The notes below the pieces were generated by a model. It searched no databases, had not been told where the DNA came from, and saw only the letters and a list, made by a program, of their open reading frames with translations. A program made the position numbers and the translations under genes. 64,000 bases of DNA from an uncultured Candidatus Saccharibacteria bacterium (GTDB lineage Bacteria; Patescibacteriota; Minisyncoccia; Minisyncoccales; JAGGSE01): positions 7,111 through 71,110 of the forward strand of contig CAZPZY010000001.1 of NCBI GenBank assembly GCA_964591195.1. Reading direction: 5' to 3'. Numbering within the stretch: the stretch's first letter is position 1; each line of letters begins with the position of its first letter. Shown in pieces: positions 6,970-54,644 of the stretch.

Positions 6970-6970
6970 A

Positions 6971-30012: not shown

Positions 30013-30016
30013 TTTT

Positions 30017-41531: not shown

Positions 41532-42074
41532 ATGAGCATAAAAAAGAACTATGTTACTGTTGTTAATAAAAAGGGAGAAGAAATTGGTAAGGCAGAAAAG
41601 TTAAGGGCTCATCAAGAAGGAAGGTTACATCGAGCGTTTTCCGTTTTTATTTTTAATAAAAAGGGGGAATTGCTTTTACAAAAAAGGGCTCAGGGGAAAT
41701 ATCATTCAGCCGGGCTTTGGTCAAATACCTGCTGTTCTCATCCCCGGCCCGGGCTTGATATAAAAAAAGAGGCGGAAAAGCGGCTTAAGGAGGAGATGGG
41801 AATTAGAGCGGAGTTAAAAGAGGTCTTTAATTTTATTTACAGAGCAAGGGTGGGTAGGTTAATTGAATATGAATTTGACCACGTTTTCTTCGGAAGATTT
41901 GACGGACAACCCAAAATAGACAAAAAAGAGGCGGAAGATTGGAGATGGATTTCTTTAGATAAATTAGAAGAAGATATAAGAAAAAATCCCAAAAGATATA
42001 CCTTTTGGCTTAAAAAGATAATTAAGAAAAATGGCTATCAATTTAAAGCCCTACTTAAAACTTGCCAGGATTAA
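41532..42074 (+). CDS. idi: isopentenyl-diphosphate delta-isomerase, type 1 (Nudix)
   Basis: HRAFSVFIFNKKGELLLQKRA...WSNTCCSHP matches the IDI-1 active-site region. Confidence 0.8.
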   Translation: MSIKKNYVTVVNKKGEEIGKAEKLRAHQEGRLHRAFSVFIFNKKGELLLQKRAQGKYHSAGLWSNTCCSHPRPGLDIKKEAEKRLKEEMGIRAELKEVFNFIYRARVGRLIEYEFDHVFFGRFDGQPKIDKKEAEDWRWISLDKLEEDIRKNPKRYTFWLKKIIKKNGYQFKALLKTCQD

Positions 42075-42876
42075 TAACTGGCGCGGCTATTTTTTAGGAG
42101 GGGTTTTCGGCTTTTTACTTGCTGAGGGGTGGCGTGCTCCTGTTTTTGATATCATTTGTTTGTTTGTTATTGGAATTTTATTGTTTACCTTTGGATTTTC
42201 AATAAATGATTTTTTTGATATTAAGGGAGATAAGTTTAAAAAAGACAAAAAAATCATTATTGGCAAGATAATCGGCGTGGGAAGGGCATTTTTCTTCTCT
42301 CTTTTCTCGGGGGTTCTAGGACTGGTTCTTTCTTTCCGTTTTGGTCTAAGGGCGTTTCTTGATGCCTTTTTGGCTGTTTTTCTTACCTTTCTTTATTCTG
42401 CTCCGCCGGTAAGATTAAAATCAAGACCCTTTTTAGACATAATCTCCCATGGTTTTTTTGCCGGTATTTTAATTTTTCTTTTTCCTCTCTTTGCCTTTGC
42501 CCCCAAAATAGACAGCCCGGAGAAACTTTTGTTGATTCCCATTTTTGTTCTCTCTATTACTGCTGAGACCAGAAATCACCTTAATGACTACCAGGCGGAT
42601 AGAGCCGAGGGACTGAAAACAACGGTTTGTTTTTTGGGTTATGAAAACTCCCAAAAACTCTTGAGGTTTTTCTTCTTCTTTTATCCTCTTACCCTTTTTC
42701 CTGTTTTTTGGCTTGTAGCCAGGAAGTTTTATTCTCTTTTTCTCTTCATTACCCTTTTCTTTCTTTTATTACTTCTGGCTAGGAAAAACCATCAGGCAGT
42801 TAGGGACTGGTTTTTGATGGACATTTACACCTTTTTTTCCTTTCTTTTCATTTTGATTTTTCATTATGGATCCTAA
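42031..42876 (+). CDS. UbiA-superfamily integral membrane prenyltransferase
   Basis: Asp-rich motifs NDFFDIKGD and NDYQADRAEG in a ~8-TM protein. Confidence 0.75.
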   Translation: MAINLKPYLKLARINNWRGYFLGGVFGFLLAEGWRAPVFDIICLFVIGILLFTFGFSINDFFDIKGDKFKKDKKIIIGKIIGVGRAFFFSLFSGVLGLVLSFRFGLRAFLDAFLAVFLTFLYSAPPVRLKSRPFLDIISHGFFAGILIFLFPLFAFAPKIDSPEKLLLIPIFVLSITAETRNHLNDYQADRAEGLKTTVCFLGYENSQKLLRFFFFFYPLTLFPVFWLVARKFYSLFLFITLFFLLLLLARKNHQAVRDWFLMDIYTFFSFLFILIFHYGS

Positions 42877-43846
42877 AAAGGTTGAACATTGTTTAGACAG
42901 GGCAATTGATTTTCTCTACCGCTCTCAATTGCCATGGGGAGAGTTTAAGACCCTTGCGAGTTGGAATTTTTTAATGATGCCTGCCTATTATGACAGCAGT
43001 CCCTTTGGCACTGGCCTGATACTTCATAATCTAAAAGGACTTAATGACGAAAGGGCAAGGAAGATGGTTGACAAGGCAATTGCCTTTTTGTTGTCTGAAA
43101 AAGAAAAGGGAGGGATTTGGAGGTTTTGGACCTCAAGAAACAAGAAAAGGATTCCTCCAGACCTAGACGATATTTCAGTGATTTCTTCTGGGCTTAAATT
43201 ATACGGCGTGCAATTTGAAGATAATAAAGATCTTGTTCTCAGCAACAGGAACAAAAATGGCTTATTTTTAACATGGATTCTTGACGAAAGACACAAGAAA
43301 AATCTATTTTGGAAAACAGCAGCAAAAGATGCTGATTGTGTTGTCAATGTCAATGTGTTAACATATCTGGAAAGGCCATTGCCTGAGGTTTGCACCTATA
43401 TTAATAAACTAATAAGCGAAAATCGCTCCAGTTCCTATTATTATCCCAGTAAACTGGCTTTTTTTTACTTTGTTTCCCGAGCAGCAAGGTCAGGGGTAAC
43501 ATGTTTCAAGAAAAACAGAGAATGGATTATCAATTCGGTCTTGTCTTGTCAGAAAAAGGATGGTTCTTTTGGAAACGAGATGGAAACTGCCCTTGGCCTT
43601 AATACCCTCTTTAACCTTAACTGTTTTGGAAAGGAAACAGAAGATGGTATAAGTTATTTATTAAGTCGGCAGAGGAGAAAGGGCGGATTCAAAAAGCAGG
43701 TTTACTTTTTGGGGATCCCCTGGTGGTTTTTGGCTCTAAGCCCCTTCTATGGTTATTATGGGTCTGAGGAAATAACCACCGGGGTTTGTATTGAGGCATT
43801 TAGGAACTATCTATCACAGAGACAATTTTATGGAGGAGGTGTTTGA
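42866..43846 (+). CDS. alpha/alpha-toroid protein with terpene-cyclase / prenyltransferase-like Q-x-x-x-G-(F/W) repeats
   Basis: Repeated motifs EKEKGGIW, QKKDGSFGN, RQRRKGGFKKQ spaced as in squalene-cyclase/prenyltransferase beta-subunit repeats; no TM. Confidence 0.4.
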   Translation: MDPKKVEHCLDRAIDFLYRSQLPWGEFKTLASWNFLMMPAYYDSSPFGTGLILHNLKGLNDERARKMVDKAIAFLLSEKEKGGIWRFWTSRNKKRIPPDLDDISVISSGLKLYGVQFEDNKDLVLSNRNKNGLFLTWILDERHKKNLFWKTAAKDADCVVNVNVLTYLERPLPEVCTYINKLISENRSSSYYYPSKLAFFYFVSRAARSGVTCFKKNREWIINSVLSCQKKDGSFGNEMETALGLNTLFNLNCFGKETEDGISYLLSRQRRKGGFKKQVYFLGIPWWFLALSPFYGYYGSEEITTGVCIEAFRNYLSQRQFYGGGV

Positions 43847-44969
43847 TACAATCATTGTTGGAGCCGGACCTGGCGGGCTGTCTGCTGGAAGATATCTAAA
43901 AGACGCCCTTATTCTGGACCAAAAGAAAGAAATTGGGTTGCCTGTTCAGTGTGCCGAGGGGCTATCAAAGAGATTTTTGGACGAAATGGACATTTCTCCT
44001 GAACCAGAATGGATATCTGTCACTATTGATACAACCCAGATTGTTTTGCCTAATGGGAAGGAGATTAATCTATATTTTCCGGGGCAAAGTTATGTGATAG
44101 ACCGGAAGGGATTTGAAAAATTTCTTGCCAGGATGTCTCAGGCGGAAATCCGCTTGGGTCAGAGGGTGGTTGATATAGAAAAGAGAGGGGGCCTTTGGGA
44201 GGTAAAAACAAGACAAGGCAAGATATTCAGGTCAAGATATCTTATCGGAGCAGATGGTCCCTTTTCAATAGTCAGGGAGAAGGTTTTTGGCCAAAAAATT
44301 AGGGTCCTACCTGTTGTTGAATACCTGGTAGAATTGACCAATAACCTTGATACCTCAAAACTTTTAATTTATCTTGACAAAGATTGGTTGGGCACCGGCT
44401 ATGCCTGGATATTTCCAAAATCAAAGAACAGGGCGAATATTGGCTTGGGTAGTGTGGAGAAGAAAGACAACCTAAACAAACTTTTAAGGGATTTTTTAGA
44501 AAACAAGGTAAAGAAGAATTTTGGACCCTATCACCTGTTGGAAAACAGAAGCAGTGTTGGGCCCTGGCTTGAGGGGCCGATAAAAATAGCCAAAGACAAT
44601 GCTTTTCTTGTTGGAGATGCAGCCGGGCTTGTTGACACCATTTCCGGGGGAGGCATAGGCAATGCAATGCTTTCTGGTCACTTGGCAGCCAAGGCAATTC
44701 TTAAGTCAGACCCTCCTTCTTACCAGAAGCAGGTTCAGTCGTTCTTTTCCGAAGACCTGTTTCAGGCACAAAAAATCCTTTATTCTTTTGACAATCAAAC
44801 CCTAAATGAACTTGGTCAGGTTTTGGAGAAAAAAAATGGGGATATTTTTTATCTGAAAAATCCGCAGGCACTTCTTGCTTTTCTCTCCAAGCCCCATTTA
44901 AGGAAAAATATTTTTGGGTTTCTTAAACTCTTTTTGATATACGCAAAATGGAAAGTCAAAAACACCTAA
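43830..44969 (+). CDS. FAD-dependent geranylgeranyl reductase family protein
   Basis: TIIVGAGPGGLSAG dinucleotide fold; GDAAGLVDTISGGGIGNAMLSGHLAA signature of GGR (ChlP / archaeal lipid saturase). Confidence 0.8.
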   Translation: MEEVFDTIIVGAGPGGLSAGRYLKDALILDQKKEIGLPVQCAEGLSKRFLDEMDISPEPEWISVTIDTTQIVLPNGKEINLYFPGQSYVIDRKGFEKFLARMSQAEIRLGQRVVDIEKRGGLWEVKTRQGKIFRSRYLIGADGPFSIVREKVFGQKIRVLPVVEYLVELTNNLDTSKLLIYLDKDWLGTGYAWIFPKSKNRANIGLGSVEKKDNLNKLLRDFLENKVKKNFGPYHLLENRSSVGPWLEGPIKIAKDNAFLVGDAAGLVDTISGGGIGNAMLSGHLAAKAILKSDPPSYQKQVQSFFSEDLFQAQKILYSFDNQTLNELGQVLEKKNGDIFYLKNPQALLAFLSKPHLRKNIFGFLKLFLIYAKWKVKNT

Positions 44970-46021
44970 AACGTTTTAGGCCCGAGATTGATAGGATTAT
45001 AAAAAGGTATCTTCCTAAAAGAGCCAGTAAGAGGTGGCTGGCTTTTGCCTTTGGGAGGTCAGGTGTTAGCCAGACAAACCTTAGGGTCGCTCAGGAGTGC
45101 TTTTTGGATCCCCTCTGGAATTTTTTAGAAAGAGGAGGAAAAAGGTGGAGACCGTTTTTTTTCTTATTACTGACCAAAGCCCTTGGAGGCAAGGTGGAAA
45201 AGGTCAAGGAGATCGCTGTTATTCTTGAATTGACCCATCAGGGCTCGCTGATCGTGGATGACCTTGAAGACAACAGCAGATTTAGGAGATCTGCGCCCTG
45301 CCTTCATCGTTTGTATGGTGTAGACGTTGCCATTAATGCCGGCAATTTCCTTTATTTCTTGCCATTTCTAACTTTGGAGAAAAATAAGAACAGGTTTCCC
45401 TGCTCAGTTCTAACCAGGGCGTATCAGGCCTGTATTCAGGAGATGGCCAATGTCCACTTGGGACAAGGAATGGATATCTATTGGCATAGGGGCAAAGGGA
45501 GGAAAATAGAAGAGAAAGAGTATCTGCGGATGGCTTCCTTCAAAACCGGCAGTTTGGCAAGACTGACAGCCCGACTGGCTTGCATTTTTTCTGGAGTTAG
45601 CGAACCAACATCTAAAAAACTGGAGAAGGCAGCGGAGAAGATTGGGGTTGCCTTCCAGATTCAGGATGACATTTTAGATATCACCCTTGGAGAGAAAGAA
45701 AGAAAGAGATTTGGGAAGGAATTTGGCAATGATATCAAGGAGGGGAAAAGGACCCTTATTGTTTTGCGGACATTAAAAAAGGCAAAGCCAAAAGAAAGAA
45801 AACAACTACTTGCCATTTTGGATAAACACCCCAACACGAAAAAAGAGATAAAAAGGGCAATAGAGATTATAAGAAAATATGATGGCGTTGAGCAGGCAAG
45901 AAAGACAGCCCAGCGCCTTTTAGACCAAGGATGGAGGATAATGGATAAAGCCCTTGTTCCTTCAAAAGCCAAGGAAGGCCTCAGGCAACTTGTTTATTAT
46001 CTGGGCAAAAGGGAAATATGA
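44948..46021 (+). CDS. polyprenyl (GGPP/FPP-type) diphosphate synthase
   Basis: First and second Asp-rich motifs LIVDDLEDNS and FQIQDDILD. Confidence 0.85.
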   Translation: MESQKHLKRFRPEIDRIIKRYLPKRASKRWLAFAFGRSGVSQTNLRVAQECFLDPLWNFLERGGKRWRPFFFLLLTKALGGKVEKVKEIAVILELTHQGSLIVDDLEDNSRFRRSAPCLHRLYGVDVAINAGNFLYFLPFLTLEKNKNRFPCSVLTRAYQACIQEMANVHLGQGMDIYWHRGKGRKIEEKEYLRMASFKTGSLARLTARLACIFSGVSEPTSKKLEKAAEKIGVAFQIQDDILDITLGEKERKRFGKEFGNDIKEGKRTLIVLRTLKKAKPKERKQLLAILDKHPNTKKEIKRAIEIIRKYDGVEQARKTAQRLLDQGWRIMDKALVPSKAKEGLRQLVYYLGKREI

Positions 46022-47172
46022 AAACAGACGATTCTCATTTTTACAAACTACCCTTAAAAAAGAAGATAGAATTTATTAAAAGGTTTTCCGGACTGAATAA
46101 AGAGGATCTTGAGATTCTCAAAAGATATCAAGAACTGCCTGATTTCTTTGATATAGAAAGCAATATTGGTCCATTCAAGATTGCTACTAATTTTTTTGTT
46201 GAGGGCAAGGAATATCTGGTACCCATGGAAACAGAGGAGCCCTCAGTGGTGGCAGCTGCCTCAAGAGGGGCAAAACTTGTCAAGGAGGGTGGCGGTTTTA
46301 GGGGCAGGTATTTAGGCAATCAAATGATTGGTCAGATTCAGCTTTTGGGGGCCAAGGACTTTAGAAAGAACAAGAAGAGAATTTTAGAGAATAAGAAAAA
46401 AATCCTTGATACTGCCAATCAGACCAATAGGTTTCTTTTAAGGATAGGAGGAGGGGCAAGAGACATAGTAGTTAAAAAACGGGGGAGGTTTTTGGTTTTA
46501 TATCTGTTTGTTGATACAAAAGATGCCATGGGAGCAAATATTGTTAATACGATGGTAGAGAAAATTTCTCCCCTCTTAACTAAATACACTCATGCCAGGG
46601 TTGGCTTGAGAATTATTTCTAATTTTGCTCCAAAAAGGATTGTTTCTGTTTGGGCAAGGGTGTCCATTGACTCATTAGAACTTAATGGTTTTTCTGGGGA
46701 AGAGGTTGCTGAGGGAATTCTTTCTGCCCAAAAATTAGCTGAACTAGACATATACCGGGCAGTTACCCACAATAAGGGAGTAATGAACGGCATAGATGCA
46801 GTTGCCTTAGCCACAGGCAATGATACCCGAGCAATTGAAGCGGCGGTTCATAGTTTTGCTGCCAGAAAAGGGAAATATCAACCCATAACCTGTTGGAAAA
46901 GAGAAAAGGAATACCTTAGAGGGGAGATTAGAACTCCTCTGCCTATTGCTACAGTAGGTGGAGCAACCTCAACCAAAAAGGCGAAACTAGCCCTAAAAAT
47001 TTTAGGAGTCAAAAATGCCCAGGAACTGGGTATTGTCGCCGGGGCAGTTGGCCTGGCAAACAATCTGGCTGCCCTTTCAGTTTTGGCAACAGAGGGAATT
47101 CAAAGGGGCCATATGAAAATCCATAAAGAGTTTGTCAAGAAGACAAGCCGACCCCGGAGTGGTCAATCTTGA
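46018..47172 (+). CDS. mvaA: hydroxymethylglutaryl-CoA reductase (catalytic domain only)
   Basis: DAMGANIVNTMVE motif and ~385-aa size of archaeal/class-I-like catalytic domain. Confidence 0.8.
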   Translation: MKTDDSHFYKLPLKKKIEFIKRFSGLNKEDLEILKRYQELPDFFDIESNIGPFKIATNFFVEGKEYLVPMETEEPSVVAAASRGAKLVKEGGGFRGRYLGNQMIGQIQLLGAKDFRKNKKRILENKKKILDTANQTNRFLLRIGGGARDIVVKKRGRFLVLYLFVDTKDAMGANIVNTMVEKISPLLTKYTHARVGLRIISNFAPKRIVSVWARVSIDSLELNGFSGEEVAEGILSAQKLAELDIYRAVTHNKGVMNGIDAVALATGNDTRAIEAAVHSFAARKGKYQPITCWKREKEYLRGEIRTPLPIATVGGATSTKKAKLALKILGVKNAQELGIVAGAVGLANNLAALSVLATEGIQRGHMKIHKEFVKKTSRPRSGQS

Positions 47173-48229
47173 TTTTTAGAGGGATAATTCCATTTTTTCT
47201 CCACTCCTTCTTAATTTTATCAGCCCTTTTTTGAGAAGAAACAAGGCAGATGCCACAGTCGCCTCCGCCTGCCCCGGCTATCTTGCCCGCTCCTCCAAAC
47301 CTTTCCGCAATTTCTGAGAGGATTTTTAGTTTTTCTGTTACGATCTCTGTTCCCGATTTCTTACTCAGTTCTTTTAGATATTTTTCATTTTCTTTGATTA
47401 GGTTTAGAATCTGTTTTTTGTTTTTTTCTCTTAAGGACAAAATCATTTTTTTTGTTGTTCTGCTGATGTCTGAAATGATTTTTTTATAAGCTTTTGGCGC
47501 TTTTTTTTGCCAGCTTTTTATTTTTTTTATTAGTTCTGGAGTAGAAGAAGGTCTGCCTGTCCAGCCAACCAAGAGTTTAAGTTCCTTTGGCAGATTTAGT
47601 TTTTCAACATAGAAATTGGGCCAGGGCATTTCAACAATTTTTCTCATATCTCTTTCTTTTTTAACTTGCTTTTTTAGCCAGTTGACATTAATCCCATGGC
47701 AGGCAAGATATCCTCCGTAGACCGAGGCAACAATATCTGCTCCGGAGCCGAGTTTTCCTTGGGCAAAAAAATGAGAAAGAGAGGCCAGTTTGAAGATTTT
47801 CTCTTTTTCTAATTTTTCTTTGTTGAACTTAAGCAAGGCAGCAATAATAGCCACGCTTGAAGCCGCTGAAAAGCCAAAGCCAATCTTTTCTTTGTTCTTA
47901 GCCCAAAGTTCTATCCTGAAGGGTTTCCATTTTCCTAAATACCTCAAACCAACCTCAATTGCTTTTCGGGCGAAGATAAGCAGTTTTTCTTCCTCTGGTT
48001 TTAGTTTCTTCAAAAAGTGCAGGTGGCCCTTTTTAAACTCTGCCTTTAGGTTTTTTAGATTATAGTTCTTTAGGGAAAGATGGATTTTTTTGTCTTGAGA
48101 ATTGGTAATTTTTGCGAAAATTCTTTTTTTAACAGCCACAACAATCGCTGGATTTTCAGGTTCCAATACCGCCCATTCGCCGGAAATAAATAACTTTCCT
48201 GGAACTGAGATGATAAATGACCTAGGCAT
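47135..48229 (-). CDS. mvaK2: phosphomevalonate kinase (GHMP family)
   Basis: N-terminal PGKLFISGEWAVLE (cf. GKLYWAGEYAILE of bacterial PMK); GFGFSAASSVAIIAAL GHMP motif. Confidence 0.7.
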   Translation of the reverse strand: MPRSFIISVPGKLFISGEWAVLEPENPAIVVAVKKRIFAKITNSQDKKIHLSLKNYNLKNLKAEFKKGHLHFLKKLKPEEEKLLIFARKAIEVGLRYLGKWKPFRIELWAKNKEKIGFGFSAASSVAIIAALLKFNKEKLEKEKIFKLASLSHFFAQGKLGSGADIVASVYGGYLACHGINVNWLKKQVKKERDMRKIVEMPWPNFYVEKLNLPKELKLLVGWTGRPSSTPELIKKIKSWQKKAPKAYKKIISDISRTTKKMILSLREKNKKQILNLIKENEKYLKELSKKSGTEIVTEKLKILSEIAERFGGAGKIAGAGGGDCGICLVSSQKRADKIKKEWRKNGIIPLKIKIDHSGVGLSS

Positions 48230-49235
48230 AATTTTTCACCCCTTTTGCTCCTAATCCTACATTAAAAAAATCAAGGTTTAGTTTTTTTAACAATTTGGTT
48301 AATTGTTTCTTGTCTTGATGAAAGCAAATAATTGCCCCTCCCCCTCCTGCTCCTGAAAGTTTGGCTGCGCCTCCTATATTCCTTACCGCCCTTACAATTT
48401 TCTCTATTTTTGGGGTAGAAACCCCCAGAACCCTGAGGGATTCCTGGGCAGTGTTGATTGAATCCTTGATTATTTCTGGGCTTCCTTTTTTAAGCCCCTC
48501 CCGCATTTTATATGTTGCCAGGGCAATATCCTTGATTTTTTCTTCCCTTAGTTTGCTGGACAGATTTCTGACCCTTTGGATAAGTTTGGCTGTTGTCATT
48601 CCCTTTTTTCGAGGGAGCAAAACAAGGACAATCTCTTTTAGAAATGGGGGGAGGTTAATATGGGTCCATTTCCCTTTTTCAAACCAGACGGTCCCGCCAA
48701 AGGTAGAGATAAAATTGTCCCCACCACTTGGCTTTCCGTGGTTGATTTTTTCTATCTCAAAAGCCATTTGATTGATTTCTTTTTTTGAAAGGTGAAATGA
48801 GAGAAACTCAGAAACTGCCTTGGAAAGAGAGACCGAAAGAGAAGCAGATGAGCCCAGTCCCATTCCAACAGGGAAATCGCTTTCTATCTCCAAAGAAAAG
48901 GGCTTTTTTATTTTCGCTTTTTCTAATATCAATCCTATCCCTGCCTTGCTGAGGTTTAAGGGATTTGATTTCAAAAATCTGAAGAGTTTTGAGAAATCGC
49001 CTTTTTTGTTTCCTTCTTGCCACAACTTCTGGCACCTTTTTGCTGTTTCTAATACCTGATTGATTTCAAATTCTCCTTCTTCTCCCAAGGGCTTATTTTC
49101 AATTTTTATTCTTTTTGCTCTCTTAATTTTTACCCTTGTTCTCTTTTCAATAGCCGAGACAATGGCTGGATAGCCATAGCAGACAGCGTGCTCTCCAATT
49201 AGATGTATTTTCCCCGGTGCCGAAGATTCGGCCAT
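48222..49235 (-). CDS. mvk: mevalonate kinase
   Basis: APGKIHLIGEHAVCYG N-terminus; PVGMGLGSSASLSVSL GHMP ATP motif. Confidence 0.85.
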   Translation of the reverse strand: MAESSAPGKIHLIGEHAVCYGYPAIVSAIEKRTRVKIKRAKRIKIENKPLGEEGEFEINQVLETAKRCQKLWQEGNKKGDFSKLFRFLKSNPLNLSKAGIGLILEKAKIKKPFSLEIESDFPVGMGLGSSASLSVSLSKAVSEFLSFHLSKKEINQMAFEIEKINHGKPSGGDNFISTFGGTVWFEKGKWTHINLPPFLKEIVLVLLPRKKGMTTAKLIQRVRNLSSKLREEKIKDIALATYKMREGLKKGSPEIIKDSINTAQESLRVLGVSTPKIEKIVRAVRNIGGAAKLSGAGGGGAIICFHQDKKQLTKLLKKLNLDFFNVGLGAKGVKNYA

Positions 49236-49861: not shown

Positions 49862-50014
49862 ATGAAAAAAAGACTTCCCCCGAGTGTCAGAAAGTATATC
49901 AGAAGGGAAAAGGCGCGGATTCGGCGCCAGGTTTTAGATCCATCTCTTCAGGAAAAATTAATTCAGGACCTGTATAAAAAATTTGAAGTGAAGAAAAATG
50001 TTCAAAGAAAATAG
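49862..50014 (+). CDS. possible small basic protein (50 aa), unannotated
   Basis: ATG..TAG ORF translating to MKKRLPPSVRKYIRREKARIRRQVLDPSLQEKLIQDLYKKFEVKKNVQRK; K/R-rich composition like genuine small proteins here; overlaps the next gene start by 17 nt. Confidence 0.3.
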   Translation: MKKRLPPSVRKYIRREKARIRRQVLDPSLQEKLIQDLYKKFEVKKNVQRK

Positions 50015-50897
50015 GATTTGTCAACTTTTAGGAATTAAATATCCGATTATCCAGGGAGGAATGGCTGGAATCTCTAATTCGTCTTTAACCTCAGCGGTTT
50101 CAAATGCTGGGGGGCTGGGGGTTATTGGCTCGGGATTAATGCCTGCTGATTGGCTTGAAAAAGAGATAGAGGCAACGCGAGAGAAAACAAATTTTCCTTT
50201 TGGAGTAAATCTTTTTATTCAAAATCCCAAAATTGAGCAACTGGTAAGGGTGGTAATAGAAAAGAAGGTGCCAGTTGTCTTCACTGGTGGAGGAAATCCG
50301 CTTCCATTATTCCCTTTTTTACACAAGGCAGGGATTAAAATTATTCCTGTTGTTCCTTCGCCGCGATTGGCAGCAAAAATGGAGGACAATGGCGCGGATG
50401 CTGTAGTGGTAGAAGGACTGGAGTCGGGCGGTCATATTGGAGAAAATACCACCTTTTGTCTTATCCCCCAAACAAAACAGGCCTTGAAAAGAATTCCCCT
50501 TATTGCCGCTGGTGGGATTTATGACAAAAGGACAAAGGAAGCCGCTTTTTTGCTGGGAGCAGAAGGGGTCCAGATGGGAACAAGATTTTTGGCTTCAAAA
50601 GAATGCCCTGTTTCTGATGCCTATAAGGAAAAAATTATCAAAGCCAAAAACGATGATATTGAGGTAATCTTAAGATTTACCGGGCATCCGATAAGGGTAA
50701 TTAGGAATCAATTTTCTGAGAGAATGAAGAAAATTGAGAGAATGGGGGCTTTTCCTGAAGAAATAAAAGCGGAAAGAATCGCTGGGGGGCTGTCAGGAAA
50801 AGATGTAGAGAACATTCCCCTAATGGCTGGCTTATGTGCAGCAGAAATCTCTGAGATTAAAAGTTGCCAACAGATAATTGAGGAAATTGCAATTTAG
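49998..50897 (+). CDS. fabK: FMN-dependent NPD/nitronate-monooxygenase family oxidoreductase, FabK-like enoyl-ACP reductase II
   Basis: YPIIQGGMAGISNSSLTSAVSNAGGLGVIG N-terminus as in FabK/NMO TIM-barrel proteins. Confidence 0.65.
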   Translation: MFKENRICQLLGIKYPIIQGGMAGISNSSLTSAVSNAGGLGVIGSGLMPADWLEKEIEATREKTNFPFGVNLFIQNPKIEQLVRVVIEKKVPVVFTGGGNPLPLFPFLHKAGIKIIPVVPSPRLAAKMEDNGADAVVVEGLESGGHIGENTTFCLIPQTKQALKRIPLIAAGGIYDKRTKEAAFLLGAEGVQMGTRFLASKECPVSDAYKEKIIKAKNDDIEVILRFTGHPIRVIRNQFSERMKKIERMGAFPEEIKAERIAGGLSGKDVENIPLMAGLCAAEISEIKSCQQIIEEIAI

Positions 50898-50905
50898 ATT
50901 TTAAT

Positions 50906-51559
50906 ATGAACCGCCTTGTTTCTGGTTTTTGCAGGATAGTTCTCAAGCCCTTGATAGATTGGTGTTTGATAAAGGAGGTAAGAGGTTTGGAAAATGTCCC
51001 CAAAGGTAATTTTATTTTGGCTGCTAATCACCAGAGCCACCTAGACCAGATCTGTACCGGCTATCTCTGTGTTCCCCGAAGGTTTCATATGCTTGGACAG
51101 ACAGACCAGTATAGCGGCTTGCCCAAACTTCTTTTGTATTTTATTTATTTTTTGGCTGGGGTTATCCCAGTAAACAGGAAAAGCAGACAATCAAGAAGCA
51201 GAGCGTTTCAGGAGGCAGTAAAAGCATTAAAAATGGGAGATATTGTCATCCTCTATCCTGAGGGAACAAGGACGAGAACTGGCCAGATTCAGCGGGCATA
51301 TTCCGGGGTGGCAAAGCTCCATCTGATAACAGGTGTGCCTATCTTGCCTGTGGCAATTGACGGCACATTTGAATTGATGCCGCCGGGCAAGGCCTTCCCT
51401 CGGATTAAAAGGATACTTAAGATCAGTGTGGGACCCCCTCTTTATTTTAGGGAAGAGATTGAAAGGGCAAAACTGCTTGATTGTCAGTCCCCTGAATATA
51501 AAACGATTAGTCAAAAAATTACAGACAAGGTAATGGAGAAAATTAAAGAACTGAAGTGA
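50906..51559 (+). CDS. plsC: 1-acyl-sn-glycerol-3-phosphate acyltransferase family
   Basis: H(X)4D motif NHQSHLD and YPEGTRTRTG block III. Confidence 0.75.
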   Translation: MNRLVSGFCRIVLKPLIDWCLIKEVRGLENVPKGNFILAANHQSHLDQICTGYLCVPRRFHMLGQTDQYSGLPKLLLYFIYFLAGVIPVNRKSRQSRSRAFQEAVKALKMGDIVILYPEGTRTRTGQIQRAYSGVAKLHLITGVPILPVAIDGTFELMPPGKAFPRIKRILKISVGPPLYFREEIERAKLLDCQSPEYKTISQKITDKVMEKIKELK

Positions 51560-52149
51560 AAAGGATATTTACCACAGCAAATAAACTTTTTGTTTTTTCA
51601 CTTCTTGAGAGGTTTTTGGTTGAAGAAATTAAGGGGAAGGAAAATATTCCCCAAAAGGGTAATTTTATTGTTGCTTCAAATCATTTGGATACTATGGATA
51701 GTTGGTTGATTGGCCTTGTCTTTAAGAATAGAGCCGAAAGCCTCTGCTTTGTTGCTAGAAGGGATAAAAACCTGAAGCAGATATGGAGGATTTTTATAGA
51801 TTTTTTTGCCCAGCCGATCGTCTTTGAGCGGGGTAGAACATCAAGAAAGGAAATTTTGAAAGAGGTAATAAGGCGGGCAAAGAGGGGCCAGATAATTGTT
51901 TTTTATCCGGAGGGAGATGTGAATAAAAAAAGAATTTTATTAAAAGGCAAAAATGGGGTGGCAGAAGTAGCCAAGAAGACGAGCTTGCCTGTCTTGCCTC
52001 TGGGTATTAGAAAAACAAAAGAGATGAAAAGAAAAATTATTATTGGCAAGCCTCTTTATTCTGACTCTCAAGAGGATGTTAATGGTTTTTTTAGAAAAAT
52101 AATGCTTGAAATCTCAAAACTATCAGGAAAGGCCTATCCCTATGATTAA
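51556..52149 (+). CDS. second lysophospholipid acyltransferase (PlsC-like)
   Basis: SNHLDTMD variant of the HxxxxD motif and FYPEGDV block. Confidence 0.6.
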   Translation: MKRIFTTANKLFVFSLLERFLVEEIKGKENIPQKGNFIVASNHLDTMDSWLIGLVFKNRAESLCFVARRDKNLKQIWRIFIDFFAQPIVFERGRTSRKEILKEVIRRAKRGQIIVFYPEGDVNKKRILLKGKNGVAEVAKKTSLPVLPLGIRKTKEMKRKIIIGKPLYSDSQEDVNGFFRKIMLEISKLSGKAYPYD

Positions 52150-53677
52150 AAAAATCCTTATTGCCAACCGTGGCGAGATTGCCCTAAGAATAATTAGAAC
52201 CTGTAAGAAAATGGGGATTAAAACCGTTGCCCTCTGCCCCCAGAAGGGAGAAGAATCCGACTTTATTGAAACTGCCTTGGCTGATGAGTTTTATTACTTG
52301 GAAAAAGAGGGAATCTCCGGCTATTTGGACATAAAAAGAATTTTGGAGATAGCCAAAAAATCTCAGGTAGATGCTATTCATCCTGGTTACGGATTCTTGG
52401 CTGAAAACTGGCTTTTTGCCAAACTCTGTAGGAGAAAGGGCATAAAATTTATTGGACCCAACCACGGAATTTTGAAGAGATTAGAAGATAAAATTGAGGC
52501 AAAGAAGATAGCCAAAAAAGTAAAAATTCCGGTTTTGCCCTTTAGCCAAAAATCAATCAATTCCCTGAAGGACCTGAAAAAATGGGTTTTGGAAATTAGA
52601 CCACCATTTGTTCTAAAGGCAAGGAAGGGAGGAGGAGGAATTGGGATTCGGGCGATAAATGGCCAGATTTCAATTGGTGAGGTTTTTACCACTGCCTTAG
52701 GGATTAGAAGGCAGATGTCAATGGCGTTTTCCAATACTGAGTTCTTTCTTGAAAAGTATCTTTCTCCGGCAAAGCATATTGAGGTCCAGATTGTCTCTGA
52801 CACCAGAAATTTTGTCCATTTAGGAGAACGGGAGTGCTCAATTCAAAGAAGGTTTCAGAAACTTTTAGAGGAATCTCCTTCTATCTTTCTGGATAAAGAA
52901 ACAAGAGAGAAGATTTTTAATTATGCCCTGAGATTTGCCAGAGCGCTAAGGTACGAAGGAGTAGGAACCATTGAATTTTTGGTCAGCCCCAAGAAAGATA
53001 TTTATTTTATGGAGGTCAATCCTCGGCTTCAGGTAGAGCACCCGATAACAGAAGCCAGAACAGGAATTGACCTGGTAGAACAACAGATACGGATTGCCCA
53101 AGGAGAGCCCTTGAGGTTTAGGCAGGAGGAGATAAGAATTTCAGGTCATGCTATAGAAGCAAGGATTTTGGCTGAAGATCCAGTTAAGGGGTTTGTGCCC
53201 TCAAGTGGACAGATTACCGAGTATTCTCCGCCAACTGGTTCAGGAATTTCCCTTCACACATTTTTGCATAAGGGTCAAAAAATCTATCCCTATTTTGACT
53301 CTCTTCTGGCAAAACTGGTCTCTTTTGGTCAAAATAGAGGAGAAGCCATTTCCCGATTAAAGAGGGCGTTGAGGGAGTTCTCTATCAAGGGAGTGCCGAC
53401 AACAATCCCCTTTTTCAATGCCCTATTGGAAGATAAAAGATTCTTGACAGGAAACTACTTTACTGACTTTATTGAAAAAAGCAGTATCTTGAAAGATATC
53501 TCCGCTTTTCAGGAGAAGAAAGAAATTGTCCCAGAGAGGGTTCCCTCAGAAGAAGAGGTGGCAAAAATTGTTTATCAGTTTTTTAGGAGATTTGAAAGAA
53601 AGGAAACAAGGACAAGAGGGATTTCTTCTTGGCAGATGGCTGAGAGGACAAATTTTTTTCAAGAAGATGAGATTTGA
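52142..53677 (+). CDS. accC: biotin carboxylase (start at MIKKILIANRGEIA)
   Basis: KILIANRGEIALRIIRT N-terminus, ATP-grasp motifs, EVNPRLQVEHPITE. Confidence 0.85.
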   Translation: MIKKILIANRGEIALRIIRTCKKMGIKTVALCPQKGEESDFIETALADEFYYLEKEGISGYLDIKRILEIAKKSQVDAIHPGYGFLAENWLFAKLCRRKGIKFIGPNHGILKRLEDKIEAKKIAKKVKIPVLPFSQKSINSLKDLKKWVLEIRPPFVLKARKGGGGIGIRAINGQISIGEVFTTALGIRRQMSMAFSNTEFFLEKYLSPAKHIEVQIVSDTRNFVHLGERECSIQRRFQKLLEESPSIFLDKETREKIFNYALRFARALRYEGVGTIEFLVSPKKDIYFMEVNPRLQVEHPITEARTGIDLVEQQIRIAQGEPLRFRQEEIRISGHAIEARILAEDPVKGFVPSSGQITEYSPPTGSGISLHTFLHKGQKIYPYFDSLLAKLVSFGQNRGEAISRLKRALREFSIKGVPTTIPFFNALLEDKRFLTGNYFTDFIEKSSILKDISAFQEKKEIVPERVPSEEEVAKIVYQFFRRFERKETRTRGISSWQMAERTNFFQEDEI

Positions 53678-54035
53678 ACTTTTCGGGAAAAATTTTGATG
53701 TTGAGATTTTGGAAAAAGAAGGGGGCGTTTTGATAAGGGTCAATGGGAAGGAGTTCTTTTTCAAAGAAGGAGAAGAAGAGGATAAAAAGGAAAGGGTAGA
53801 ATCCCTTAAAGGGGATTTCGGCCAAGAAAAGGTTTTGGCTCCAATTTCCGGTCAGATTATCAAGATTTTTCAAAAAGAGGGAGCAGAGGTAAAAAGAGGA
53901 GATGTGCTTTTAGTTCTTTCGGCTATGAAGATGGAAAACGAAATTCTTGTTGAAAAAACAGGAAGTGTCAAAAAAATTTTTTTCAAAGAAGGAGACATAG
54001 TAAAAAAGGGAGATGTTTTGGCAATTATAAAATGA
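53667..54035 (+). CDS. accB: biotin carboxyl carrier protein (biotinyl domain)
   Basis: APISGQI...VLSAMKMENEI biotin-attachment AMKM motif; the upstream in-frame extension overlaps accC. Confidence 0.7.
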   Translation: MRFELFGKNFDVEILEKEGGVLIRVNGKEFFFKEGEEEDKKERVESLKGDFGQEKVLAPISGQIIKIFQKEGAEVKRGDVLLVLSAMKMENEILVEKTGSVKKIFFKEGDIVKKGDVLAIIK

Positions 54036-54553
54036 AACTAACTATTAAGACATTTAAAAAGGTAGATTCAACCCAAAAGGTTGCCAAGAAATTGAAAAAG
54101 CCCTTGCCTTGGACAGTCATCCTGGCAGAGGAGCAAACCTCTGGTTATGGCAGAAAGAGAAATTTCTGGTATTCTCCAAGGGGTGGACTTTATTTTTCCA
54201 TTGTTCTGCCTAGTTTGAAGATTGAAAGTACAGAAACCTTAACAATTCTTTCTGCCTTCTCAGTGGCTAAAATTTTGAAAGAGGACTTCAATCTTGAGTC
54301 ATTTATAAAATATCCCAATGACGTCTATGTAGGAGGAAAAAAAATTTGTGGTATAATAACAGAGAACAGGCTTTCAGGAAACAGGGTTTTGTTTTCTGTA
54401 ATGGGCATTGGGCTAAATACCAATCTTGACAGATTTCCCAAAAACCTGGAAAATAAAGCCACATCCCTTAAAATAGAGACAGGAAAGGAGGTTGAGAATA
54501 AAAAATTAATGAAGAAGATAATCAGGCAGTTAAAGAAACAGATTGATTTTTAA
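54032..54553 (+). CDS. birA: biotin--protein ligase, catalytic domain only (no N-terminal HTH)
   Basis: EEQTSGYGRKRNFWYSPRGGLYFS matches the BirA GRGRRGR.W.SP.G.L..S loop; 173 aa. Confidence 0.7.
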   Translation: MKLTIKTFKKVDSTQKVAKKLKKPLPWTVILAEEQTSGYGRKRNFWYSPRGGLYFSIVLPSLKIESTETLTILSAFSVAKILKEDFNLESFIKYPNDVYVGGKKICGIITENRLSGNRVLFSVMGIGLNTNLDRFPKNLENKATSLKIETGKEVENKKLMKKIIRQLKKQIDF

Positions 54554-54565
54554 CCTAATTTGTAG

Positions 54566-54612
54566 TTGCTAACCGCTTTGGTAGCAAGTTTGCTGAGGGA
54601 AGATACCTCAGC
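54566..54612 (+). promoter_or_regulatory. two-hairpin module (TTGCTAACC-N5-GGTAGCAA palindrome + GCTGAGG-N7-CCTCAGC hairpin), inverted copy of the 3' end of the trpS leader
   Basis: Reverse complement of 54576-54612 matches 28745-28780 with 4 mismatches; lies 33 nt upstream of the carboxyltransferase ATG. Confidence 0.3.
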
Positions 54613-54644
54613 AGAAATTACTGAAGAAGTTAGATAACTTAACT

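What the first reader, a model, noticed from the sequence alone, without database searches (positions are those of the whole stretch)
42031..44969. UbiA prenyltransferase + terpene-cyclase-like toroid protein + geranylgeranyl reductase inside the mevalonate/GGPP-synthase cluster
Read directly: four consecutive same-strand genes with overlapping stops and starts. They encode a UbiA-family membrane prenyltransferase (NDFFDIKGD / NDYQADRAEG), a soluble protein with QxxxGG(F/W)-type alpha/alpha-toroid repeats, an FAD geranylgeranyl reductase (GDAAGLVDTISGGGIGNA), and a polyprenyl synthase with both DDxxD motifs. HMGR, PMK, MVK and IDI follow directly.

Established knowledge: UbiA-family DGGGP synthase plus GGR plus GGPPS is the archaeal route to saturated isoprenoid glycerol lipids. 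Scattered bacteria are reported to carry such mixed lipid gene sets.

Inference: this organism lacks a quinone- or chlorophyll-type obvious use for GGR and UbiA, so this may be a module for isoprenoid membrane lipids or another prenylated, cyclised product. It sits about 1 kb upstream of bacterial fatty-acyl lipid genes (fabK-like, two plsC, ACC at 49998..56195). That juxtaposition makes a mixed or unusual membrane chemistry plausible.
Basis: partly seen in the sequence, partly recalled or inferred. Interest (0 to 1): 0.75.

Follow-up and report, generated by a model that had tools for sequence, protein, structure and literature searches.

The report
Isoprenoid lipid operon with terpene cyclase
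An ultrasmall (Patescibacteria-type) bacterium carries, beside its ordinary fatty-acid lipid genes, an archaea-derived gene set for C20 isoprenoid lipids with a small ring-forming terpene cyclase inserted into it, which points to an uncharacterised, possibly ring-bearing, membrane lipid.

Summary
The genes are there as described. On the + strand, with overlapping stops and starts, lie IDI, UbiA, a 326-aa toroid protein, GGR, a GGPPS-like synthase and HMGR. PMK and MVK are convergent, and FabK-PlsC-ACC follows.

The UbiA is not MenA, UbiA, CyoE or ChlG, and it is not a canonical DGGGPS either. It belongs to an uncharacterised clade typified by AfUbiA (PDB 4TQ3), shared by Patescibacteria and many archaea.

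Orthologues in other Patescibacteria sit in GGR-UbiA-GGPPS-GGGPS(PcrB) operons. They occupy the slot that a DGGGPS-like gene holds in sister loci, near CarS-like and archaetidylinositol-phosphate-synthase-like genes and PlsY, PlsC and ACC. An ether-lipid role is therefore plausible.

No GGGPS, CarS or G1P dehydrogenase lies in this 64-kb window.

The toroid protein is a stand-alone class II terpene cyclase beta domain. It has a conserved DxDD(T) motif and catalytic Tyr and is closest to the cyclase domain of drimenol synthase, but it lacks that enzyme's diphosphate-binding arginines. The family is large and includes natural UbiA-cyclase fusions.

The most likely role is cyclisation of the geranylgeranyl chain of a UbiA-made lipid before GGR saturates it. 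This is a new variant of known kinds, and the biochemistry is untested.

The parts
41532..42074 (+). Type 1 isopentenyl-diphosphate isomerase (IDI). Its stop overlaps the UbiA start by 44 nt.
   Evidence: NF002995 154.3 bits (cut-off 127) and TIGR02150 117.8 bits (cut-off 105.8). An IDI gene is linked to UbiA in 16 of the related loci surveyed.
42031..42876 (+). Polytopic UbiA-superfamily prenyltransferase of an uncharacterised AfUbiA-like clade. It is the proposed geranylgeranyl transferase to a membrane acceptor.
   Evidence: Pfam UbiA 84.7 bits. Both Asp-rich motifs and YSAPPxRxKSRP are invariant in 32 clade members. Multiple hydrophobic segments. Best PDB match by profile is AfUbiA 4tq3 (8e-26), then MjDGGGPS 6m31 (1.3e-16). 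AF2 model pLDDT 88.7, with TM-score 0.73-0.76 to both. No NCBIfam equivalog cut-off is reached.
42866..43846 (+). Stand-alone class II terpene cyclase beta domain (TC-beta). It is soluble, with motif PPD99-L-D101-D102 and catalytic Tyr193.
   Evidence: Profile against PDB: drimenol synthase cyclase domain 9mhs 2e-21, AstC 2e-14, SHC 5e-13. AF2 pLDDT 92.2. Foldseek: AsDMS TMq 0.77, MstE 0.75. D99 is conserved in 28/28, D101 in 27/28 and Y193 in 28/28. DxDDT holds in the 150 top family representatives. No TM segment.
43830..44969 (+). FAD-dependent geranylgeranyl reductase. The listed ORF starts at TTG 43791, but ATG 43830 is the likelier start.
   Evidence: TIGR02032 187.1 bits (cut-off 158.8); PF22578 GGR_cat. 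Best PDB match is Thermoplasma DGGGPL reductase 3oz2, 3e-29. There are 120 or more close clusters, named Patescibacteria, Paceibacterales, Nealsonbacteria or Humimicrobiaceae where a name exists.
44948..46021 (+). trans-Polyprenyl diphosphate synthase, GGPPS-like. The product chain length is not proven.
   Evidence: Pfam polyprenyl_synt 226 bits. Best NCBIfam matches are IdsA_Meth (189.8 bits) and GGPP_syn (165.9 bits), both below cut-off. Best PDB matches are the GGPPS of P. horikoshii (1wy0, 1.6e-38) and T. thermophilus (1wmw).
46018..47172 (+). Class II HMG-CoA reductase. Its start overlaps the GGPPS stop (ATGA).
   Evidence: TIGR00532 337.1 bits (cut-off 259.95).
47135..48229 (-). Phosphomevalonate kinase.
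   Evidence: TIGR01220 270.7 bits (cut-off 165.7).
48222..49235 (-). Mevalonate kinase.
   Evidence: TIGR00549 208.9 bits (cut-off 163.05).
5839..9223 (.). Remote part of the mevalonate pathway: thiolase-like (5839-7017, -), HMG-CoA synthase (6971-8164, -) and diphosphomevalonate decarboxylase (8222-9223, +).
   Evidence: Read from the translations. The homologous genes in L006 carry Pfam Thiolase, HMG_CoA_synt and MVD-like/MDD_C.
49998..56195 (+). Adjacent bacterial acyl-lipid genes: FabK-like (49998-50897), two PlsC-type acyltransferases (50906-52149), AccC (52106-53677), BCCP (53526-54035), BirA-like (54032-54553) and carboxyltransferase (54645-56195).
   Evidence: FabK: TIGR03151 348.5 bits, below the cut-off of 453. 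The other genes were read from the translations. The same block (AccAD E 1e-275) directly precedes GGR-[UbiA]-GGPPS-PcrB in relatives L096, L115 and L148.

Best explanation
The block is the core of an archaea-derived isoprenoid membrane-lipid module in a Patescibacteria-type bacterium.

Shown:
- A complete classical mevalonate pathway, an IDI and a GGPPS-like synthase are present.
- The membrane UbiA enzyme has an intact diphosphate/Mg site.
- The soluble single-domain class II terpene cyclase has an intact acid motif.
- The GGR is of the archaeal type.
- All these genes are translationally coupled.

Inferred mechanism:
1. GGPP is made from mevalonate-derived IPP and DMAPP.
2. The UbiA ionises GGPP and attaches the geranylgeranyl group to a membrane-bound acceptor. 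The acceptor is most likely glycerol-phosphate based (GGGP or a lyso-lipid), as in DGGGP synthesis.
3. The TC-beta protonates the terminal double bond of the still unsaturated chain through D101 and closes one or more six-membered rings.
4. GGR saturates the double bonds that remain.

The product would be a phytanyl-type lipid carrying a cyclised chain end. It would be made alongside ordinary acyl phospholipids from the adjacent FabK/PlsC/ACC genes. The cyclase is an optional tailoring step, since sister lineages have the same operon without it.
For: Gene identities.

UbiA placement:
- It is nearest AfUbiA and MjDGGGPS by sequence profile and by fold, and further from the quinone-type enzymes ApUbiA and UBIAD1.

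Links to the ether-lipid pathway:
- Orthologues (42-44% identity) sit in IDI-GGR-UbiA-GGPPS-PcrB/GGGPS-HMGR operons in L025, L092, L096, L097 and L148.
- In sister loci the same slot between GGR and GGPPS-PcrB holds a DGGGPS-like UbiA (PRK12882 238-244 bits).
- A CarS-like gene (125 bits, cut-off 148) and an archaetidylinositol-phosphate-synthase-like CDP-alcohol transferase lie 8 kb upstream in L008, L009, L012 and L018.
- The module is embedded in fatty-acid and phospholipid operons: FabG-UbiA-GGR-GGPPS-IDI-FabZ-FabK-PlsC-ACC in L015 and L020, and ACC-GGR-UbiA-GGPPS-PcrB in L096.

Cyclase:
- Fold and catalytic D/D/Y are conserved, as are the aromatic cation-pi residues.
- The AsDMS diphosphate-binding residues R378, R380, R425 and R513 are not conserved (PMC12365925). 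This fits a substrate that is no longer a free diphosphate.

Functional coupling of UbiA and cyclase:
- Adjacency in three unrelated layouts: the window type, L001 and L090.
- Natural UbiA-TC-beta fusion proteins in 8 of the top 150 family representatives.

Gene order places the cyclase between UbiA and GGR.
Against: - No GGGPS, G1P dehydrogenase, CarS, CDP-alcohol transferase or PlsY is in the 64-kb window.
- No G1P dehydrogenase was seen in any locus.
- None of the five toroid-bearing loci has PcrB within 10 kb. Their UbiAs fall in a different bacterial subclade from the PcrB-linked ones.
- The UbiA clade fails all DGGGPS equivalog cut-offs.
- In archaea the clade is a distinct clade that reaches no DGGGPS cut-off and is usually next to GT4 or GT2 glycosyltransferases. 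If those archaea also carry a canonical DGGGPS, which was not checked, its native acceptor need not be GGGP.
- The nearest characterised cyclases act on a diphosphate (FPP).
- The alignment of the loop that holds R378 and R380 is uncertain.
- The chain length of the synthase product is unproven.
Confidence: 0.45

Rival explanations
1. Cyclase-first terpenoid route. The TC-beta cyclises free GGPP (or FPP) to a bicyclic diphosphate of the copalyl or drimenyl type. The UbiA then uses that cyclic diphosphate. It either transfers the ring system to an acceptor or acts as an intramembrane type-I-like terpene synthase. GGR reduces what is left. The product is a free or anchored cyclic diterpenoid that serves as a hopanoid- or sterol-like membrane rigidifier.
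For: - The closest characterised relatives of the toroid protein (AsDMS, AstC) cyclise a prenyl diphosphate.
- A copalyl-type diphosphate made from GGPP keeps its allylic diphosphate, so a UbiA enzyme could still ionise it (established chemistry, own knowledge).
- UbiA-like enzymes acting as terpene synthases downstream of class II cyclases are known, for example PtmT1 (own knowledge, not checked here).
- The UbiA-cyclase fusions fit either order of reaction.
Against: - The four diphosphate-binding arginines of AsDMS are replaced by A/K/E, D/N, I/L/Y and P/F. No alternative conserved basic cluster exists; only R205 is conserved, and that residue is also present in AsDMS.
- Sister operons work without the cyclase, so the UbiA must accept linear GGPP.
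Confidence: 0.25
2. Meroterpenoid or small-molecule pathway of the MstE type. The UbiA prenylates an aromatic or other soluble acceptor, the monodomain cyclase cyclises the prenyl chain, and the product is a specialised metabolite or redox carrier rather than a bulk membrane lipid.
For: - The MstE precedent: a monodomain class II cyclase acting on geranylgeranyl-dihydroxybenzoate. Foldseek TMq to MstE is 0.75 (described in bioRxiv 10.1101/2024.10.28.620730).
- Family members are fused to P450, PhyH-type dioxygenase or acyltransferase domains, or sit next to P450 and transporter genes.
- Small SAM methyltransferases follow IDI-UbiA-GGPPS in L007, L014 and L024, with weak UbiE/MenG similarity.
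Against: - No aromatic-precursor gene lies in the window or in any related locus.
- The operon sits in core territory (dnaA, mevalonate pathway, fatty-acid genes) of a reduced genome and is conserved across many Patescibacteria.
- HMM scores rank quinone and chlorophyll prenyltransferases below the DGGGPS-type models.
- Sequence similarity of the toroid family to MstE is marginal (7e-3).
Confidence: 0.15
3. The toroid protein is not a catalyst. It would be a lipid- or terpenoid-binding or structural alpha/alpha-toroid protein, and the operon would simply make saturated phytanyl-type lipid.
For: - Some family members are domains of very large surface-type proteins, such as P0144 (1619 aa) and P0168 (1400 aa).
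- Many family members have N-terminal signal or anchor segments.
- Sister operons lack the gene.
Against: - The acid motif D-x-D-D-T is essentially invariant (150/150, 144/150, 134/150 and 119/150).
- The partner Tyr is conserved in 131/150.
- The aromatic residues that line the AsDMS active site are also kept.
Confidence: 0.05
4. Ordinary cofactor biosynthesis: menaquinone or ubiquinone, heme O, or (bacterio)chlorophyll side-chain attachment and saturation.
For: Weak sub-threshold HMM similarity to ChlG (44.8 bits) and MenA (44.3 bits) for the UbiA, and to BchP-ChlP (83.8 bits) for the GGR.
Against: - All these scores are far below the cut-offs (313, 277 and 343 bits) and below the DGGGPS-type scores.
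- Fold matches rank AfUbiA and MjDGGGPS above ApUbiA and UBIAD1.
- No quinone, heme or chlorophyll genes are nearby.
Confidence: 0.03

Closest known systems
Archaeal archaeol pathway (GGPPS, GGGPS, DGGGPS, CarS, GGR) and its bacterial copies in Cloacimonadota/FCB bacteria (Villanueva et al. 2020, PMC7852524)
   Same: - A GGPPS-like synthase, a UbiA-family transferase and an archaeal-type GGR lie in one operon.
- Orthologous operons in related Patescibacteria add a true GGGPS, a CarS-like gene and an archaetidylinositol-phosphate-synthase-like gene, next to bacterial acyl-lipid genes.
- As reported for the bacterial cases, no G1P dehydrogenase is seen.
   Different: - The UbiA here is not a canonical DGGGPS (54-59 bits against cut-offs of 269-353).
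- GGGPS and CarS are absent from this window.
- A class II terpene cyclase is inserted between the transferase and the reductase, which I know of in no archaeol pathway (own knowledge).
AfUbiA, the Archaeoglobus fulgidus UbiA homologue of PDB 4TQ3 (Huang et al. 2014, PMC4106721)
   Same: - It is the best sequence-profile match (8e-26) and the best fold match (TM 0.73-0.76).
- It shares the YSAPP-R(F/L)K and DYExDKKAGLK(N/T)T motifs.
   Different: - The paper reports no natural acceptor for AfUbiA, so the match gives no function.
- Identity is only about 20%.
HAD-TC-beta drimenol / drimenyl-diphosphate synthases (AsDMS, PDB 9MHS/9M7D; fungal AstC)
   Same: - It is the closest characterised cyclase domain (2e-21; TMq 0.77).
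- The catalytic residues D331, D333 and Y427 and the aromatic cation-pi residues are conserved.
   Different: - There is no HAD phosphatase domain; the protein is a free-standing 326-aa beta domain.
- The diphosphate-binding arginines are not conserved.
- The partner is a UbiA transferase and a C20-type synthase, not FPP processing.
MstE-type monodomain class II meroterpenoid cyclases (PDB 6SBB)
   Same: - It has a single beta-domain architecture and works with a prenyl-transfer step.
- It acts, as proposed here, on a chain that is already attached to a head group.
- The fold match is TMq 0.75.
   Different: - Sequence relationship is marginal (7e-3).
- No aromatic head-group pathway is present.
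- The context here is core lipid metabolism, not a secondary-metabolite cluster.

Membership tests
UbiA prenyltransferase superfamily (PF01040) | Pfam gathering score, and two Asp-rich motifs (NDxxDxxxD and NxxxDxxxD) for Mg2+ and diphosphate binding | tested here: met
   84.7 bits against a cut-off of 34.2. N59, D63, D67, N182, D186 and D190 are invariant or nearly so in 32 sequences.
UbiA prenyltransferase superfamily (PF01040) | Polytopic all-helical membrane fold | tested here: met
   Hydropathy segments span the protein. AF2 model pLDDT 88.7, with TM-score 0.73-0.76 to 4tq3, 6m31 and 7bpu.
Canonical DGGGP synthase (EC 2.5.1.42) | Score above the NCBIfam equivalog cut-offs (PRK12882, PRK12883, PRK12884, PRK12872) | tested here: not met
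   54-59 bits against cut-offs of 269-353. None of the 32 clade members nor the 8 archaeal relatives reaches a cut-off. By contrast the DGGGPS-like genes of sister loci score 238-244 bits.
Canonical DGGGP synthase (EC 2.5.1.42) | Works with a GGGPS (PcrB family) encoded in the same genome or operon | tested here: inconclusive
   No PcrB in the window or within 10 kb in the toroid-bearing loci. Orthologues in L025, L092, L096, L097 and L148 are in one operon with a PcrB that passes TIGR01769. The whole genome could not be searched.
Quinone / heme O / chlorophyll prenyltransferases (MenA, UbiA, CyoE, ChlG/BchG) | Score above the family cut-offs; relevant cofactor genes nearby | tested here: not met
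   ChlG 44.8 bits against 313; MenA 44.3 against 277. ubiA_proteo and cyoE models are matched by only 15 and 7 of the 32 clade members. No such genes are in the window.
Class II (protonation-initiated) terpene cyclases | DxDD-type general-acid motif in an alpha/alpha-barrel beta domain | tested here: met
   PPD99-L-D101-D102 aligns to D331-x-D333 of AsDMS. The motif is conserved 150/150, 144/150 and 134/150. The fold is confirmed.
Class II (protonation-initiated) terpene cyclases | Demonstrated cyclase activity | not testable with these tools
   Needs enzyme assays.
HAD-TC-beta drimenol synthases (DMS-1 / AstC type) | N-terminal HAD phosphatase domain fused to the TC-beta domain | tested here: not met
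   The protein is 326 aa, and the match covers only residues 252-523 of the 526-aa chain 9mhs_B. No HAD Pfam hit.
HAD-TC-beta drimenol synthases (DMS-1 / AstC type) | Arg/Tyr cluster that binds the FPP diphosphate (R378, R380, R425, R513, Y373, Y426) | tested here: not met
   These positions are A/K/E, D/N, I/L/Y, P/F and W in the family. Only Y426 is kept (residues from PMC12365925). The loop alignment is uncertain.
MstE-type monodomain meroterpenoid cyclases | Single beta domain that acts on a prenylated aromatic acid; sequence membership of the MstE clade | tested here: inconclusive
   The monodomain architecture and a UbiA partner are met. Sequence similarity is only 7e-3. No aromatic-acid genes were seen.
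Geranylgeranyl reductase family (TIGR02032) | Curated family cut-off; GGR catalytic domain | tested here: met
   187.1 bits against a cut-off of 158.8; PF22578 2.4e-11. The equivalogs for DGGGPL reductase, ChlP and MenJ are all below cut-off.
Complete archaeal-type ether phospholipid pathway | G1P dehydrogenase, GGGPS, DGGGPS, CarS and a CDP-alcohol transferase all present | tested here: not met
   Within the window only the GGPPS-like synthase, the UbiA and the GGR are present. G1P dehydrogenase was seen in none of about 150 related loci. The rest of the genome is not testable.

The most novel reading that the evidence does not exclude
A stand-alone class II terpene cyclase works on the geranylgeranyl chains of UbiA-made, glycerol-linked isoprenoid lipids. 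Ultrasmall bacteria, and some DPANN-like archaea, would then build ring-bearing (labdane- or cheilanthane-like) ether lipids into a mixed acyl/isoprenoid membrane. This would be a new lipid class, a new way of putting rings into isoprenoid lipids (acid-catalysed, not radical-SAM), and a candidate biological source for orphan bi- and tricyclic terpane biomarkers.
Probability: 0.15. Interest if true: 0.9.

Novelty: new variant of a known kind. Interest (0 to 1): 0.66.

Why it matters
Patescibacteria are usually described as unable to make their own lipids. This lineage, however, carries a full mevalonate pathway, fatty-acid and phospholipid genes, and an archaea-derived isoprenoid-lipid module at its replication origin.

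If the module makes glycerol-linked isoprenoid lipids, these bacteria are natural mixed-membrane organisms, which bears on the 'lipid divide' question.

The inserted cyclase belongs to a large, uncharacterised family of single-domain class II cyclases. The family has about 1,000 clusters at 50% identity and is repeatedly coupled, and sometimes fused, to UbiA transferases. Working out its reaction would assign a function to this family and to the AfUbiA-type transferases. It might also reveal a new type of cyclic membrane lipid.

Tried and rejected
- Cofactor explanation (MenA, UbiA, CyoE, ChlG, ChlP, MenJ). Rejected on HMM scores and fold ranking.
- Prenyltransferase-beta or SHC assignment of the toroid protein. 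Prenyltrans scores 15.8 bits and SQHop_cyclase_C 21.4 bits, both sub-threshold. Profile and fold searches place it with single-domain TC-beta proteins instead.
- Search of the window and all held loci for GGGPS, PlsY, CarS, CDP-alcohol transferase, UPPS, FakA and a DGGGPS-like gene by tblastn. Negative for the window.
- Walking off the window ends through exact-protein look-ups. One protein was not on record and the other was only on a 2.7-kb contig. The genome-wide presence of GGGPS therefore stays open.
- The word-indexed protein search suggested a tiny toroid family of 41 clusters. The exhaustive profile search showed this was a sensitivity artefact: 1,023 clusters at E<=1e-30.
- The 763-nt MVK-FabK spacer. 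It holds only promoter-like sites and no ACP gene or RNA family.
- The afdb50 fold library was unavailable.
- Literature searches found no description of this UbiA-cyclase-GGR operon in CPR bacteria. The only related item is a one-line mention of GGGPS/DGGGPS homologues in one Parcubacteria genome.
- The NJ tree of UbiAs is rough. It uses BLOSUM distances and has no support values, so it is used only for gross topology.

Full report
**1. The observation**

The ORF map confirms the block. All genes below are on the + strand.

| Gene | Coordinates | Size |
|---|---|---|
| IDI | 41532-42074 | 180 aa |
| UbiA | 42031-42876 | 281 aa |
| toroid protein | 42866-43846 | 326 aa |
| GGR | 43791/43830-44969 | 392/379 aa |
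| polyprenyl synthase | 44948-46021 | 357 aa |
| HMGR | 46018-47172 | 384 aa |

Each start overlaps the preceding stop by 44, 11, 17, 22 and 4 nt. PMK (47135-48229) and MVK (48222-49235) are on the minus strand.

Pfam and NCBIfam confirm the identities:
- UbiA: 84.7 bits.
- GG-reductase family TIGR02032: 187.1 bits, above the 158.8 cut-off.
- polyprenyl_synt: 226 bits.
- Class II HMGR, Gram-positive-type PMK, MVK and type 1 IDI are all above their cut-offs.

IDI precedes the block. PMK and MVK are on the other strand. The fatty-acid genes start 0.76 kb after MVK, not about 1 kb after the stated interval.

Thiolase, HMGS and MVD lie 33 kb away at 5839-9223. dnaA (38584-39948) and the cumulative GC-skew minimum place the operon next to the probable origin.

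**2. The organism**

- The UbiA gene is 95% identical to that of 'MAG: bacterium AUK014' (L010).
- The whole layout recurs in GCA_053985605.1 (L006).
- Named relatives are Patescibacteria, Parcubacteria, Nealsonbacteria, Paceibacterales and one Humimicrobiaceae MAG.

**3. The UbiA**

- Homologues form a tight clade, followed by a gap from E<=1e-40 to about 1e-12.
- All 32 aligned members keep both Asp-rich motifs and YSAPPxRxKSRP.
- None reaches any NCBIfam equivalog cut-off. The best are DGGGPS and archaeal 'prenyltransferase' models, and the ChlG, MenA, UbiA and CyoE models score lower.
- A profile of the clade hits AfUbiA (4tq3, 8e-26) ahead of MjDGGGPS (6m31, 1.3e-16) and ChlG (2.7e-7).
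- The AF2 model (pLDDT 88.7) superposes equally on AfUbiA and MjDGGGPS (TM 0.73-0.76). It fits ApUbiA, UBIAD1 and the PRTase less well.
- The AfUbiA paper reports no natural acceptor (PMC4106721).
- A scan of one genome per species found relatives that are nearly as close in Aenigmatarchaeota (43-51%), Methanobacteriota, Thor- and Promethearchaeota, Altiarchaeota, Bathyarchaeota, Hadarchaeota and Thermofilaceae.
- These archaeal genes also fail the DGGGPS cut-offs. They usually sit beside GT4 or GT2 glycosyltransferases.
- In a rough NJ tree the bacterial sequences are monophyletic and nested among the archaeal ones, next to DPANN-type sequences. This suggests an inter-domain transfer.

**4. 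Context that bears on the acceptor**

I clustered the ORFs of 40 related loci. The Patescibacterial core is [FabG]-UbiA-[toroid]-[GGR]-GGPPS-IDI-mevalonate genes.

- The core is often followed by FabZ-FabK-PlsC-ACC (L009, L015, L020).
- About 8 kb upstream, L008, L009, L012 and L018 carry a CDP-alcohol transferase, a PHP protein, a CarS-like gene and fatty-acid kinase genes.
- The CarS-like gene scores 125 bits against the CDP-archaeol synthase model (cut-off 148).
- The CDP-alcohol transferase is closest to archaetidylinositol-phosphate synthase (120-133 bits, cut-off 180).

The key result concerns L025. There the operon is IDI-GGR-UbiA-GGPPS-PcrB-HMGR, and the PcrB passes the GGGPS equivalog (213 bits against 161.6).

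A metagenome scan with that PcrB returned 59 loci:
- Four more have the same UbiA clade between GGR and GGPPS-PcrB (L092, L096, L097, L148).
- Eleven have a DGGGPS-like UbiA in that position (E about 1e-11 to 1e-15 to the clade profile; the three scanned, L106, L117 and L124, score 238-244 bits on PRK12882, cut-off 296). Eight of these also carry CarS-like and CDP-alcohol transferase genes upstream within the stretch held.
- PlsY overlaps the PcrB stop, and NusA, ClpP and RNase Y follow.
- In L096, L115 and L148 the module directly follows FabK-PlsC-AccC-BCCP-BirA-AccAD. These genes are nearly identical in kind to the window's (AccAD E 1e-275).

So relatives of this organism hold a hybrid acyl/isoprenoid lipid gene cluster. 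In it the window's UbiA clade and a DGGGPS-like enzyme are positionally interchangeable.

There are limits to this argument:
- The window has no PcrB, PlsY, CarS, CDP-alcohol transferase, UPPS or FakA.
- No locus shows a G1P dehydrogenase.
- The toroid-bearing loci belong to the UbiA subclade for which no PcrB was seen within 10 kb.

**5. The toroid protein**

*Fold and nearest relatives*
- A profile of 28 homologues hits the class II cyclase domain of drimenol synthase AsDMS (9mhs, 2e-21). AstC (2e-14) and SHC (5e-13) follow, and MstE is only marginal (7e-3).
- The AF2 model (pLDDT 92.2) matches the AsDMS TC-beta domain (TMq 0.77), MstE (0.75) and the myxobacterial single-domain cyclases 8pak and 8paj.

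*Active-site residues*
- Mapped onto the AsDMS residues defined by crystallography and mutagenesis (PMC12365925), D331, D333 and Y427 correspond to D99, D101 and Y193. These are conserved in 28/28, 27/28 and 28/28 sequences.
- The aromatic cation-pi residues are kept.
- The diphosphate-binding R378, R380, R425 and R513 are not kept.

*Family size and fusions*
- The exhaustive profile search shows a large family: 1,023 clusters at 50% identity with E<=1e-30. Most are stand-alone proteins of 300-370 aa.
- PDxDDT is nearly invariant in the top 150.
- Eight of those 150 are natural fusions with a UbiA domain.
- Others are fused to P450, PhyH-like or acyltransferase domains.

*Linkage to UbiA*
- Cyclase and UbiA are also adjacent in two unrelated layouts, L001 and L090.
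- Within the Patescibacterial operon the cyclase is present in 5 of 27 bacterial loci. It is interleaved phylogenetically with cyclase-less sisters; for example L011 has it and L012 does not. It is therefore an accessory tailoring gene.

**6. GGR and synthase**

- The GGR is nearest the Thermoplasma DGGGPL reductase (3oz2, 3e-29) and the archaeal DGGGPL-reductase models. It is not nearest ChlP or MenJ.
- Its many close homologues are Patescibacterial.
- The synthase is nearest archaeal and Thermus GGPPS structures and the IdsA and GGPP_syn models, all below cut-off. C20 is likely but unproven.

**7. Interpretation**

The best-supported reading is an archaea-derived isoprenoid membrane-lipid module. 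The steps would be:
1. GGPP is synthesised.
2. UbiA transfers the geranylgeranyl group to a membrane acceptor, probably glycerol-phosphate based.
3. The TC-beta cyclises the unsaturated chain by acid catalysis.
4. GGR saturates the rest.

What is shown is the enzyme families, the intact catalytic motifs, the coupling of UbiA with the cyclase, and the ether-lipid context of the orthologues. The acceptor, the reaction order and the product are inferred.

The rivals are:
- a cyclase-first route through a cyclic diphosphate;
- an MstE-like meroterpenoid;
- a non-catalytic toroid protein;
- cofactor biosynthesis, which is disfavoured.

**8. Novelty**

The held literature mentions GGGPS/DGGGPS homologues in one Parcubacteria genome (PMC7852524). 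It notes that CPR mevalonate genes are usually linked to cis-prenyltransferases, whereas archaeal ones are linked to trans-IPPS (PMC6107057). A recent survey of class II cyclases covers the MstE and HAD-fused DMS clades and does not mention CPR; part of its sequence set was filtered to 350 aa or more.

I found no description of a UbiA-TC-beta-GGR-GGPPS operon. It is a new variant of known kinds, not a new category.

Noticed in passing
window 40165-41517 (+): Quinolinate phosphoribosyltransferase (nadC, TIGR00078 311.8 bits) is fused to a DUF359 domain, the archaeal-type GTP-dependent dephospho-CoA kinase. It lies directly upstream of IDI and is probably the first gene of the operon; a promoter-like site sits at 39914-39942. 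In relatives the DUF359 gene is separate.
   Followed up: partly
window 29832-29985 (+): FMN riboswitch (RF00050, 97 bits) ahead of the riboflavin genes ribE, ribH and ribB at 29939-31705.
   Followed up: no
window 36000-40200: dnaA lies at 38584-39948 and the cumulative GC-skew minimum is at about 36-40 kb. rnpA, yidC and jag follow the ACC genes at 56598-58124. This is the probable replication origin region, so the lipid genes sit in core genome territory.
   Followed up: partly
window 11308-13151, 17677-19359, 35280-36419: Archaeal-flavoured housekeeping genes: archease plus RtcB, a class I lysyl-tRNA synthetase, and a fusion of an amino-acid-kinase-fold domain with a cytidylyltransferase-like domain (Pfam AA_kinase + CTP_transf_like in the L006 orthologue).
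   Followed up: no
L106-L125, especially L117:312-15369; L115; L096: Related Patescibacteria-type contigs carry a hybrid lipid supercluster: DegV, an AIPS-like CDP-alcohol transferase, PHP, CarS-like, FakA, UPPS, GGR, DGGGPS-like, GGPPS, GGGPS and PlsY. The PlsY start overlaps the GGGPS stop. In some contigs the supercluster directly follows FabK-PlsC-ACC. No G1P dehydrogenase was seen.
   Followed up: partly
L008:6031-9166, also L019 and L020: DUF6580, a B12-binding radical SAM protein (DUF4070; weak match to the 'lipid biosynthesis B12-binding/radical SAM' model TIGR04072) and DUF362 lie immediately upstream of FabG-UbiA. Whether this is a lipid-modifying enzyme is unknown.
   Followed up: no
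proteins P0150, P0151, P0153, P0159, P0172, P0186, P0260, P0282; also P0155, P0164, P0183: Natural fusions of a UbiA domain with the TC-beta domain, some flanked by PhyH-like dioxygenase domains and coiled-coil/TPR tails. Separate fusions join TC-beta to P450, PhyH or acyltransferase domains. Their genomic contexts could not be looked up.
   Followed up: partly
L026, L029, L037-L043 (GT4); L023, L026, L027, L028 (GT2): In archaea the same UbiA clade is almost always next to a glycosyltransferase. The partner is GT4 in Bathyarchaeota, Hadarchaeota, Thermofilaceae and Methanobacteriota, and a membrane GT2 in Aenigmatarchaeota. This hints at a glycosylated prenyl lipid.
   Followed up: partly
L025, L092, L096, L097, L148: The PcrB-linked operons use a shorter, divergent GGR paralogue of about 341 aa. 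It scores higher on BchP-ChlP (128 bits) than on the DGGGPL-reductase models, unlike the window's GGR.
   Followed up: no
window 49236-49997: An unusually long (763 nt) divergent spacer between MVK and FabK. It has strong promoter-like hexamers on both strands (for example 49416-49388, 11 of 12 positions) and no ACP gene or known RNA.
   Followed up: partly
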